Below, in pieces: positions 41,936-42,574 of a stretch of DNA of 46,763 bases. Source of the stretch: a virus. Lineage: Duplodnaviria; Heunggongvirae; Uroviricota; Caudoviricetes. Made by a program: the position numbers and the translations under genes. The stretch lies in IMG/VR virus record IMGVR_UViG_2511231131_000008; one strand, written 5' to 3'. The notes below the pieces were generated by a model that saw only the letters and a list, made by a program, of their open reading frames with translations, was not told where the DNA came from and made no database searches. The stretch's first letter is position 1; each line of letters starts with the position of its first letter.

Positions 41936-42002
41936 AACCCATGTTGATTACCTTTTGGCGGGTATCCGTTTTTTGTTTTCCCTTGTGATACCCGCCCTTT
42001 TT
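41936..42002 (+). ncRNA. dicF: DicF-like small RNA with intrinsic terminator
   Basis: Immediately upstream of dicB; terminator stem GGCGGGTATC...GATACCCGCC plus TTTTT (41957-42002); downstream sequence CTTTTTAAAGTGAATTTTGTGATG matches the K-12 dicF-dicB junction as recalled. 5' end approximate. Confidence 0.5.
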
Positions 42003-42185
42003 AAAGTGAATTTTGTGATGCGGTGAATGCGGCTCAGCGCACGCGGAACAGTTAAAAAGGCCAGTTGACTTCCGTATTGGTTCTTATGGGTGGGTTCTCT
42101 GTATCCGGCGTTAATTGTTAACTGGTTAACGTCACCTGGAGGCACCAGGCACCGCATCACAAAATTCATTGTTGAGGACGCGATA

Positions 42186-42374
42186 ATGGAAACGTTATTA
42201 CCAAACGTTAATACGTCTGAAGGTTGCTTTGAAATTGGTGTCAAAATCAGTAACCCTGTATTTACTGAAGATGCCATTAATAAGAGAAAACACGAACGGG
42301 AGCTATTAAATCAAATATGCATTGTTTCAATGCTGGCCCGTTTACGTCTGATGCAAAAAGGATGCTGGCAGTGA
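42186..42374 (+). CDS. dicB: Cell division inhibitor DicB
   Basis: 62 aa METLLPNVNTSEGCFEIGVKISNPVFTEDAINKRKHERELLNQICIVSMLARLRLMQKGCWQ matches DicB as recalled; GAGGA Shine-Dalgarno. Confidence 0.85.
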   Translation: METLLPNVNTSEGCFEIGVKISNPVFTEDAINKRKHERELLNQICIVSMLARLRLMQKGCWQ

Positions 42375-42574
42375 ATACAGCATTTGCACTCGCTCTGACA
42401 GTTTATCTTAATACTGGCGAGCCTGTTAATCTGGTTATTGACATTTACGGTTCAATGAAAGAATGCACGGCTGCCGCAGCGGAACAGAAAATTCCCGGCA
42501 ACTGTTATCCGGTCGATAAAGTTATTCACATGGATAATAACGAAATCCCGGCAGGACTTAAAACAGCGCCGTAA
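42362..42574 (+). CDS. ydfD: YdfD-like small protein
   Basis: 70 aa from ATG 42362 overlapping the dicB stop; hydrophobic N-terminal segment MLAVNTAFALALTVYL; position as ydfD in Qin. Confidence 0.5.
   Translation: MLAVNTAFALALTVYLNTGEPVNLVIDIYGSMKECTAAAAEQKIPGNCYPVDKVIHMDNNEIPAGLKTAP

What the first reader, a model, noticed from the sequence alone, without database searches (positions are those of the whole stretch)
41936..42574. dicF-like sRNA, dicB and ydfD-like module in the early-left operon
DicB is recognisable, and a terminator-bearing RNA element lies immediately upstream where dicF sits in Qin. The 3' stem-loop and downstream junction resemble K-12, but the 5' portion (...UGUUGAUUACCUUUUGGCGGG...) appears to differ from the K-12 DicF seed as I recall it, so targeting specificity may differ. 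Together with the ydfA-like first gene, this makes the left operon Qin-like rather than lambda-like; no N-like gene was identified.
Basis: partly seen in the sequence, partly recalled or inferred. Interest (0 to 1): 0.5.

Follow-up and report, generated by a model that had tools for sequence, protein, structure and literature searches.

The report
Retargeted DicF-position small RNA allele
A prophage carries the usual dicB and ydfD genes, but where the cell-division-blocking small RNA DicF normally sits there is an unannotated variant with both known target-binding parts replaced, so it probably controls other genes.

Summary
dicB (42186-42374, Pfam DicB 131 bits), a ydfD-like DUF1482 gene (42371-42574) and a ydfA-like first gene (40855-41007) are present. 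A terminator hairpin with a U-run (41957-42002) lies exactly where dicF lies in K-12 Qin.

The flanks are about 95-100% identical to K-12: roughly 200 nt of upstream processing leader and the whole spacer down to dicB. The 56 nt at 41936-41991 are replaced.

Rfam's DicF model finds nothing here even at E<=10, while K-12 dicF scores 76.7 bits. Both the 5' tail and the hairpin loop and upper stem differ; in K-12 the tail pairs with xylR and the hairpin region with ftsZ, pykA and manX. Accessibility-corrected hybridisation puts the variant at background for all four validated targets, whereas K-12 DicF scores in the top 0-1% for three.

Related loci show at least four 5' modules and four hairpin modules recombined between invariant flanks. 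The window allele occurs in about 197 of 5,426 complete E. coli genomes, never annotated; canonical dicF occurs in 4,010.

Best reading: a positional DicF allele, made the same way, with a different and still unknown target set. This is a new variant of a known kind and of moderate interest.

The parts
40855..41007 (+). ydfA-like first gene of the early-left (dicB-type) operon, DUF1391
   Evidence: Pfam PF07151 104.7 bits. RefSeq annotates a 'DUF1391 family protein' in the identical genome.
41738..41860 (+). Conserved pre-sRNA leader, homologous to the K-12 ydfC-dicF spacer that holds the RNase III site giving the 190-nt DicF precursor
   Evidence: About 95% identical to K-12 L001. RNase III/RNase E processing of this region in K-12 is described in PMC10448788. 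Cleavage in this prophage is inferred.
41861..41885 (+). Hypervariable patch between two near-invariant blocks
   Evidence: 24 of 25 columns vary and there are at least 7 versions among 24 haplotypes. It also differs from K-12.
41886..41935 (+). Conserved stem-loop immediately upstream of the sRNA, part of the precursor; identical to K-12
   Evidence: All 50 positions are identical to K-12. A helix pairing 41890-41898 with 41918-41926 is predicted in both. Mean minor-allele fraction is 0.018 in 24 haplotypes.
41936..41956 (+). Single-stranded 5' tail of the variant sRNA (AACCCAUGUUGAUUACCUUUU), the presumed seed. It replaces the K-12 sequence GCCCUCUGUUAUCAAUUUUCUGGUGACGUUU.
   Evidence: It is identical in 23 of 24 B-type haplotypes, whether joined to hairpin H2 or H3. 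It is unpaired in the fold. The mature 5' end is unknown.
41957..42002 (+). Rho-independent terminator hairpin of the sRNA: a 10-bp stem, a 20-nt U/C-rich loop (CGUUUUUUGUUUUCCCUUGU), then C and U5
   Evidence: Fold energy -18.5 kcal/mol, z = -4.9. It sits at the position of the K-12 DicF terminator. The loop and upper stem differ from K-12.
42005..42170 (+). Structured spacer / dicB 5' UTR closed by a 21-bp helix (42005-42025 with 42150-42170); probable RNase III site separating the sRNA from dicB mRNA
   Evidence: Fold energy -79.1 kcal/mol, z = -5.6. Near-identical to K-12. Sub-threshold STnc100 hit at 34 bits. RNase III makes a 72-nt DicF, i.e. about 19 nt past the 53-nt end (PMC9438474). 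The assignment to this helix is my inference.
42186..42374 (+). dicB, cell-division inhibitor (62 aa)
   Evidence: Pfam PF05358 131.5 bits, full length 1-62 of 62. RefSeq annotates dicB.
42371..42574 (+). ydfD-like DUF1482 gene (67 aa), overlapping the dicB stop by 4 nt
   Evidence: Pfam PF07358 71.3 bits. phrog_1092 120 bits. Annotated in RefSeq.

Best explanation
The window holds the early-left operon of a lambdoid prophage integrated next to rspB. By my own knowledge of the K-12 map, that is the same end of the chromosome region as cryptic Qin.

dicB and the ydfD-like gene are ordinary. At the dicF position lies an allele of the dicF locus. It keeps the whole production scaffold: about 200 nt of upstream leader with the RNase III region, the stem-loop just upstream, a Rho-independent terminator, and the downstream 21-bp helix. 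Its 56-nt business part has been exchanged.

Inferred mechanism, by homology with K-12.
- Transcription from the repressor-controlled leftward promoter runs through the ydfA-like gene and the leader.
- Most transcripts stop at the hairpin 41957-42002. Read-through transcripts are cut by RNase III in the 42005-42025/42150-42170 helix, releasing dicB-ydfD mRNA.
- RNase III and then RNase E trim the 5' side, leaving a small RNA of roughly 45-65 nt with an unpaired 5' tail, a U/C-rich loop and a U-tail. This is the standard form of an Hfq-binding base-pairing RNA.

Both segments that K-12 DicF uses for pairing are replaced: the 5' end for xylR and the hairpin region for ftsZ, pykA and manX. The variant shows only background complementarity to those four mRNAs, so it most likely regulates a different, still unidentified set of mRNAs. 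Division inhibition in this prophage is then left to DicB.

What is shown: sequence anatomy, homology of the flanks, loss of the Rfam match, loss of predicted pairing, population frequency, and modular recombination of alleles. What is inferred: expression, processing sites, Hfq dependence, and trans-regulation.
For: 1. Locus orthology. The flanks are identical or near-identical to K-12 on both sides, with a sharply bounded replaced block. The gene order matches RefSeq annotation of the identical genome.

2. Architecture is kept in every allele. All seven alleles fold as an unpaired 13-23 nt tail, a GC-based hairpin and a U-run, at -10.7 to -22.6 kcal/mol. The window allele folds at -18.5, z = -4.9. 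Upper-stem pairs change on both sides between hairpin types: U-A in H2 against C-G in H3 at the same aligned columns.

3. Not coding. Allele lengths of 74, 72, 67, 65, 63, 62 and 55 nt mostly differ by non-multiples of 3.

4. Not canonical DicF. There is no RF00039 hit at E<=10, against 76.7 bits for K-12. Scores fall in steps: A+H3b 43.5 bits, B2+H3 34.7, B+H3 34.1, and no hit for B+H2, the window's type.

5. Retargeting. Energies include opening costs and are compared with 80 pseudo-translation-initiation regions.
- K-12 DicF: manX -14.7 (0/80 of background as good), xylR -13.5 (1%), pykA -11.7 (1%), ftsZ -8.3 (12%).
- Window allele: ftsZ -4.0 (69%), manX -6.5 (28%), pykA -5.0 (49%), xylR -5.5 (41%).
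The pairing regions of K-12 DicF are taken from PMC5069750.

6. Maintenance. The 21-nt tail is identical in 23 of 24 distinct B-type haplotypes, including lineages with substitutions in the upstream stem and with either hairpin. The allele is present in 197 of 5,426 genomes, and 81 records are >=99% identical.

7. Modularity. The combinations A+H1, A+H3b, A+H4, B+H2, B+H3, B2+H3 and B3+H2b all occur. About 110 E. coli records match B+H3 at >=95% identity and 287 match A+H3b at >=99%.

8. The production pathway in K-12 comes from PMC10448788 and PMC9438474.
Against: There are no expression data, so nothing shows that a stable small RNA accumulates.

The 10-nt deletion relative to K-12 removes the K-12 RNase E site (AUCAAU|UUUCUGG), so 5' maturation may differ or fail.

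No convincing target was found. Only about 125 kb of K-12, the window itself and about 1.4 Mb of prophage loci could be scanned.

The tail is no more conserved than its flanks (minor-allele fraction 0.014 against 0.018), so its invariance is not independent proof of selection on a seed.

The loop varies in length and sequence among H2-type alleles, which could mean it is unconstrained.

The ftsZ test has low power: even K-12 DicF reaches only the 12th percentile in it.
Confidence: 0.6

Rival explanations
1. The element is only a cis-acting terminator and processing signal. It insulates dicB, exo, xis and int from leaky leftward transcription in the lysogen. The short RNA it leaves behind has no trans-acting role, and allele diversity is neutral drift plus phage mosaic recombination.
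For: What all alleles keep is the terminator itself: the GGCGG/CCGCC base and the U-run. Loops differ freely, even among H2-type alleles. No target was found. The tail is not more conserved than the flanking sequence.
Against: The homologous K-12 RNA is an experimentally proven Hfq-dependent regulator made from the same scaffold (PMC5069750, PMC10448788). A bare terminator does not need a conserved 21-nt unpaired tail, yet that tail is identical across 23 haplotypes and two hairpin types. Alleles come as discrete, deeply diverged modules rather than as a cloud of point variants.
Confidence: 0.25
2. It is a functional DicF equivalent. It still represses ftsZ, and perhaps other DicF targets, through a different set of base pairs, so the prophage keeps two division inhibitors.
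For: The position is the same and it is co-transcribed with dicB. A segment is shared with K-12 (UUUGGCGG.UAUC.GUUUU). A crude duplex search finds a possible interrupted pairing of the loop with ftsZ -41..-8, covering CGGAG, at -16.1 kcal/mol. The ftsZ test has low power, since K-12 DicF is itself only at the 12th percentile.
Against: With opening costs included, the best ftsZ interaction is -4.0 kcal/mol, at the 69th percentile of background. The crude -16.1 is only z = -1.0. The K-12 ftsZ-pairing residues (ACUCCGUGACUGCUCUGCC) are absent. There is no RF00039 hit.
Confidence: 0.1
3. It is a decaying remnant: a dicF pseudogene that lost its seed by deletion and is drifting.
For: Relative to K-12 there is a 10-nt deletion that removes the RNase E site and part of the seed region. 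There is no Rfam hit.
Against: The hairpin is perfect and more stable than that of K-12: -18.5 against -15.9 kcal/mol, z = -4.9. The same sequence is found unchanged in many unrelated strains, including STEC, ETEC and O121, and in prophages with complete early-left regions. Its tail also occurs on a second, equally well-formed hairpin.
Confidence: 0.05

Closest known systems
DicF sRNA of E. coli K-12 cryptic prophage Qin (Rfam RF00039)
   Same: It lies at the same locus between the same flanks: the upstream leader and stem-loop, and the downstream RNase III-type helix and dicB. The layout is the same, with an unpaired 5' tail, a GC-based terminator hairpin and a U-run. A core UUUGGCGG.UAUC.GUUUU is shared, and it belongs to the same operon type.
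   Different: 56 nt are replaced. The 5' seed UUUCUGGUGACG is gone; it now reads UUGAUUACCUUUU, with a 10-nt deletion that includes the K-12 RNase E site. The loop and upper 3' arm, which pair with ftsZ, pykA and manX in K-12, are replaced by a U/C-rich loop. There is no RF00039 hit and no above-background pairing to the four validated targets. ydfB and ydfC are missing upstream.
Extra dicF copies of EHEC O157:H7 (reported as four copies; PMC7873438, PMC5069750)
   Same: These are further dicF-locus alleles in lambdoid prophages. One O157:H7 copy (strain PV15-279) is the A+H3b allele found here, which has the canonical seed on a different hairpin.
   Different: That allele keeps the K-12 5' seed, whereas the window allele changes both seed and hairpin. 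A+H3b still scores 43.5 bits with RF00039; the window type scores nothing. I could not read Melson & Kendall 2019, so I do not know how far they describe copy-to-copy differences.
PasA / PasA-2 and PasD / STnc100 prophage sRNA variant families (preprint 10.64898/2026.05.13.724894)
   Same: These are prophage-borne, terminator-ended sRNAs made by processing. They exist as discrete sequence variants with one conserved and one divergent half, and are spread by repeated phage acquisition.
   Different: They lie in the late region (Q / esterase / holin) or among structural genes, not in the early-left operon. The preprint does not mention DicF or dicB (0 occurrences). The window carries its own true STnc100 elsewhere, at 31329-31495.

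Membership tests
DicF RNA (Rfam RF00039) | Scores at or above the family's gathering threshold (48 bits) with the covariance model | tested here: not met
   No hit in the window at gathering threshold or at E<=10 in 41600-42250. The K-12 control scores 76.7 bits. L058, with the identical allele, gives no hit at E<=5.
DicF RNA (Rfam RF00039) | Located in the dicBF-type operon, downstream of the ydfA(BC) leader and upstream of dicB | tested here: met
   Flanks are identical to K-12 on both sides and dicB starts 184 nt downstream of the U-run.
DicF RNA (Rfam RF00039) | 3' Rho-independent terminator hairpin followed by a U-run | tested here: met
   10-bp perfect stem plus U5, -18.5 kcal/mol, z = -4.9.
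DicF RNA (Rfam RF00039) | 5' seed (UUUCUGGUGACGUUU) that pairs with xylR | tested here: not met
   The sequence is replaced. xylR interaction is -5.5 kcal/mol at the 41st percentile, against -13.5 (1%) for K-12 DicF.
DicF RNA (Rfam RF00039) | 3' region complementary to the ftsZ ribosome-binding site (also to pykA and manX) | tested here: not met
   The loop and 3' arm are replaced. Window allele: ftsZ -4.0 (69%), pykA -5.0 (49%), manX -6.5 (28%). K-12 DicF: -8.3 (12%), -11.7 (1%), -14.7 (0%). The ftsZ comparison has low power.
DicF RNA (Rfam RF00039) | [quoted passage not shown] | not testable with these tools
   Only the sequence of the processing scaffold could be checked. It is conserved, but the K-12 RNase E site is deleted.
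DicB protein (Pfam PF05358) | Full-length match above the curated cut-off | tested here: met
   131.5 bits against 27, residues 1-62 of 62.
YdfD / DUF1482 (Pfam PF07358) | Match above the curated cut-off, with the gene directly after dicB | tested here: met
   71.3 bits against 25. It overlaps the dicB stop, as in K-12.
STnc100 (Rfam RF02076), considered for the dicF-dicB spacer | Scores at or above the gathering threshold (47 bits) | tested here: not met
   34.0 bits, E = 1.1e-5, in the window. K-12 and six other loci give 31-37 bits. The match is full-length and reproducible but below threshold. The true STnc100 in the window scores 99.6 bits.
HK022 put antiterminator RNA, considered to explain read-through without an N gene | Sequence or structure similarity to putL/putR downstream of the early promoters | tested here: not met
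   No significant blastn match between window 38500-42300 or 31200-31600 and the HK022 immunity region. There is no STnc100-type hit in HK022. No put model is available in Rfam.

The most novel reading that the evidence does not exclude
The dicF locus is a natural 'seed-swap' scaffold. Invariant processing flanks (the RNase III/E leader upstream, the terminator base and an RNase III helix downstream) present interchangeable 5'-tail and hairpin-loop modules that recombine among lambdoid prophages. Different prophages would then deliver small RNAs with different host or phage target sets from the same operon position. The window allele would be a functional, Hfq-dependent sRNA with a regulon that excludes ftsZ, xylR, manX and pykA, making 'DicF' a family of at least 7 functionally distinct regulators. 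Most of the non-canonical ones are invisible to current annotation.
Probability: 0.4. Interest if true: 0.65.

Novelty: new variant of a known kind. Interest (0 to 1): 0.45.

Why it matters
DicF is a textbook prophage sRNA and a virulence modulator in EHEC. It is usually treated as a single sequence; published surveys collected copies more than 99% identical (PMC5069750).

Here the same locus carries discrete alleles with replaced pairing regions, found in hundreds of E. coli genomes, many of them STEC and ETEC isolates. At least three types escape Rfam-based detection: B+H2, B+H3 and A+H3b. The records listed for these types carried no annotation at the site.

If these alleles are active, then "has dicF" is not a uniform trait. 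Prophage content would change the host's post-transcriptional network in allele-specific ways.

The invariant scaffold with exchangeable seeds would also give a natural system for studying how sRNA specificity evolves. It could serve as a ready-made chassis for synthetic sRNAs.

If the alleles are inactive, the result is still useful: it sets the limits of the Rfam DicF model.

Tried and rejected
1. Rfam DicF hit. None was found at any threshold, so strict family membership is rejected.

2. Pas sRNAs. I considered that the variant might be PasA-D from EPEC. These lie in late or structural regions, and the preprint does not mention DicF or dicB. Rejected.

3. HK022 put-like antiterminator. I considered that the leader or the spacer might explain read-through without an N gene. 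There is no similarity to the HK022 immunity region and no STnc100-type hit there. Rejected.

4. Target search by exact 11-mers in 1.5 Mb of fetched loci. It found only self matches and 11-12-mers at about the number expected by chance. A recurring 12-mer (CAAGGGAAAACA) in about 11 prophage loci is absent from the window and is not linked to the H2 hairpin.

5. Duplex scan of the whole window on both strands. The best non-self sites have z of about -4 to -5 among 11,682 windows, which is the expected tail. One site at 26552-26579(-), next to the start of a small ORF, ranked only fifth. Not pursued.

6. 14-mer scans of IMG/VR for tail and loop targets.

7. Whole-sRNA duplexfold without opening costs. 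It gave unrealistically long duplexes and was replaced by regional and accessibility-corrected scoring.

8. Literature search for the variant's sequence strings: no paper. Melson & Kendall 2019 is not held.

9. Coding reading of the + strand ORF 41871-42026 and the - strand ORF 41948-42277. Rejected, because allele length differences are mostly not multiples of 3 and neither ORF is annotated.

10. Two scripts returned no answer from the script machine and were rerun in lighter form.

Full report
**What is there**

The window is 100% identical, over the 721-nt stretch compared (41880-42600), to a prophage of E. coli 2013C-4465 (NZ_CP015241). RefSeq annotates the following genes there; coordinates are converted to the window, on the + strand unless marked.
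- LexA/CI-type repressor: 39873-40589
- DUF1391 (ydfA-like): 40855-41007
- hypothetical protein on the minus strand: 41122-41637
- dicB: 42186-42374
- DUF1482 (ydfD-like): 42371-42574
- an 823-aa exonuclease: 42654-45125
- excisionase, then integrase, then the host genes rspB/rspA

Pfam confirms these: DicB 131.5 bits, DUF1482 71.3, DUF1391 104.7, Peptidase_S24 plus HTH for the repressor, and P22_Cro for the divergent gene.

No RNA gene is annotated between 41637 and 42186.

**The RNA element compared with K-12**

I fetched K-12 Qin with its annotated dicF and aligned it. Going left to right:
- From about 41738 to 41860 the window is roughly 95% identical to the K-12 ydfC-dicF spacer.
- 41861-41885 differs.
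- 41886-41935 is identical at all 50 positions.
- 41936-41991 (56 nt, against 63 nt in K-12) is replaced.
- From 41992 (CCGCCCUUUUUAAAGUG...) to the dicB start the two are again near-identical, apart from one short divergent stretch with a 14-nt length difference.

So the sRNA body has been exchanged inside an otherwise conserved scaffold.

The replaced block folds as an unpaired tail (AACCCAUGUUGAUUACCUUUU), a perfect 10-bp stem (GGCGGGUAUC/GAUACCCGCC), a 20-nt U/C-rich loop, and C plus U5. The energy is -18.5 kcal/mol, z = -4.9, and 0 of 200 shuffles fold as well. K-12 DicF has the same layout at -15.9 kcal/mol.

The simple terminator scan missed the large hairpin because of its loop-length limit. 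It reported only a small nested one.

**Is it DicF?**

Rfam's DicF model (RF00039) finds nothing in the window at the gathering threshold or at E<=10 in the local region. It gives 76.7 bits on K-12.

The locus is nevertheless orthologous. Apart from the flanks, a MAFFT alignment of ten alleles shows two things. The window tail aligns to the K-12 5' region with a 10-nt deletion, which removes the K-12 RNase E site AUCAAU|UUUCUGG. The seed changes from GGUGACG to GAUUACC. All alleles share UUUGGCGG.AUC.GUUU.

**The locus is polymorphic and modular**

I scanned IMG/VR and one-genome-per-species GTDB for the conserved flanks and extracted the inserts.

5' modules:
- A, canonical
- B, the window type
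- B2: AACCCAUGUUGAGUAUUGACCUUU
- B3: ACUCCAUGUGAAGUAGCUUU

Hairpin modules:
- H1, canonical
- H2, the window type
- H3: GGCGGCAUCAGUUUCAUUGCUGGCUGAUGUCCGCC, and variants
- H4, short

Observed combinations are A+H1, A+H3b, A+H4, B+H2, B+H3, B2+H3 and B3+H2b. Tails and hairpins therefore assort independently.

All seven alleles fold into the same tail-hairpin-U-run shape. Between H2 and H3 an upper-stem pair changes on both sides (U-A to C-G) at the same alignment columns. Insert lengths (74, 72, 67, 65, 63, 62, 55 nt) mostly differ by non-multiples of three, which excludes a coding constraint.

Rfam DicF scores fall in steps: 76.7 bits (A+H1), 43.5 (A+H3b), 34.7 (B2+H3), 34.1 (B+H3), and no hit for B+H2, B3+H2b or A+H4. 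The intermediates link the window allele to DicF. No non-canonical type tested reaches the 48-bit threshold.

**Frequency in 5,426 complete E. coli genomes**

- Canonical dicF: 4,010 genomes, 7,241 places.
- Window allele: 197 genomes. 156 genomes cover at least 80% of the query, and 81 records are at least 99% identical. They include many STEC and ETEC isolates, among them an O121 strain, and every listed record has "none" under annotated features.
- B+H3: about 110 records at 95% identity or more.
- A+H3b: 287 records at 99% identity or more, including O157:H7.

In 24 distinct B-type haplotypes the 21-nt tail is identical in 23. It stays identical when the upstream stem carries substitutions and whether the hairpin is H2 or H3. 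The loop varies in length and sequence while keeping GUUUU(U)CCC. The tail is not more conserved than the flanking stem (minor-allele fraction 0.014 against 0.018), so this is only modest evidence for selection on a seed.

**Does it keep DicF's targets?**

In K-12 the 5' end of DicF pairs with xylR, and the 3' region pairs with ftsZ and pykA (PMC5069750). manX is a further validated target (PMC9438474), and the prediction places its site in the 3' hairpin region. I fetched these K-12 loci.

I scored hybridisation with opening energies for both partners, against 80 pseudo-translation-initiation regions as background. The percentage is the fraction of background that scores as well or better.

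| Target | K-12 DicF | Window allele |
|---|---|---|
| manX | -14.7 kcal/mol (0 of 80) | -6.5 (28%) |
| xylR | -13.5 (1%) | -5.5 (41%) |
| pykA | -11.7 (1%) | -5.0 (49%) |
| ftsZ | -8.3 (12%) | -4.0 (69%) |

The positive control recovers the published sites for xylR, pykA and ftsZ. The variant is at background for all four. For ftsZ the test is weak, so retained ftsZ control by another pairing stays open as a minor rival.

I could not identify new targets. Exact-word and duplex scans of 1.5 Mb of fetched loci and of the window gave only chance-level hits. 14-mer scans of IMG/VR saturated. The tools do not allow a whole-genome scan.

**How it is probably made**

This part is inference from K-12. 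There, transcription from the DicA-repressed promoter yields a transcript that ends at the DicF terminator and a read-through transcript that includes dicB-ydfD. RNase III creates the 5' end of a 190-nt precursor, and RNase E creates the 53-nt form (PMC10448788). RNase III also makes a 72-nt form with a 3' end about 19 nt further downstream (PMC9438474).

The window keeps the sequence of the leader that holds the RNase III region. It also keeps the spacer, which folds into a domain closed by a 21-bp helix pairing 42005-42025 with 42150-42170 (-79.1 kcal/mol, z = -5.6). A cut 19 nt past the hairpin would fall in that helix, so I assign it as the RNase III site that separates the sRNA from dicB mRNA.

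In the roughly 200-nt precursor fold, only about 9 nt (AUUACCUUU) remain unpaired between the leader domain and the terminator. The mature 5' end may therefore lie there.

**Literature**

No paper in the library contains the variant's sequence. Surveys of dicF used copies more than 99% identical. EHEC is described as having four copies. A 2026 preprint on prophage Pas sRNAs describes comparable variant families elsewhere in prophages but does not cover this locus. I could not read Melson & Kendall 2019.

**Verdict**

The module call is right and ordinary. The RNA is a real, non-random, conserved element at the dicF locus. It is not a DicF by the family model, and it has lost both of DicF's known pairing regions. 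It is best described as a new allele, a seed-and-loop swap, of a known prophage sRNA locus, and one of several recombining modules. Function as a retargeted regulator is plausible but unproven.

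Noticed in passing
window 42005-42170 (+): The dicF-dicB spacer folds into a large domain closed by a 21-bp perfect helix (-79.1 kcal/mol, z = -5.6). In the window, K-12 and six other loci it gives a reproducible full-length but sub-threshold match to Rfam STnc100 (31-37 bits against a threshold of 47). The same spacer occurs without dicB in Stx phages (Shigella phages 75/02 Stx and POCJ13). It is probably the RNase III site that yields the 72-nt DicF form.
   Followed up: partly
window 31329-31495 (-): A full STnc100 sRNA (99.6 bits) lies between a Q-like antiterminator ORF (32267-33088, -) and a 645-aa esterase-like ORF (29251-31188, -). 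This is the late-leader position described for PasD/STnc100.
   Followed up: partly
window 35116-35291 (-): A sok antitoxin RNA (Rfam RF01794, 121.7 bits) implies a hok/sok-type toxin-antitoxin locus inside the prophage.
   Followed up: no
window 41122-41637 (-): A 171-aa gene of unknown function lies on the opposite strand, where K-12 has ydfB and ydfC, so it faces leftward early transcription head-on. It matches phrog_1244 (194.9 bits) and has no Pfam or PADLOC hit. It has a coiled-coil-like N-terminus and a C-terminal CxxC...CxxC motif.
   Followed up: partly
window 41861-41885 (+): This 25-nt patch is hypervariable between two near-invariant blocks of the pre-sRNA leader. At least 7 unrelated versions occur in 24 haplotypes, and they vary independently of which sRNA allele follows. 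Its role is unexplained.
   Followed up: partly
L137 16-528 (IMG/VR UViG_2541047907_000002): Here a B3+H2b allele and the spacer are followed by IsrK (65 bits) and C4 antisense RNA (80 bits) instead of dicB. The sRNA-plus-spacer unit can therefore be joined to a different downstream module.
   Followed up: no
NZ_AP018488.1 2029210-2029265 (E. coli O157:H7 PV15-279): One O157:H7 dicF-locus copy is the A+H3b allele, with the canonical 5' seed but a different hairpin. 287 E. coli records are at least 99% identical to it. It scores only 43.5 bits with Rfam DicF, below the threshold, and carries no annotation in the record listed. Its ftsZ/pykA/manX-pairing region is replaced.
   Followed up: partly
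window 42654-45125 (+): The 823-aa 'exonuclease' after the ydfD-like gene carries only a C-terminal Rv2179c-like 3'-5' exoribonuclease domain (residues 641-813, 208 bits). The first roughly 640 residues have no Pfam match.
   Followed up: no
window 26552-26579 (-): The sRNA loop could pair (-24.9 kcal/mol) with the end of a 189-aa ORF and the ribosome-binding region of the next small ORF. This was only the fifth-best non-self site of 11,682 windows, so it is at chance level.
   Followed up: partly
window 42182-42199 (+): In the minimum-energy fold of the spacer, the dicB start codon (42186-42188) lies inside a predicted 7-bp hairpin. This might limit dicB translation.
   Followed up: no
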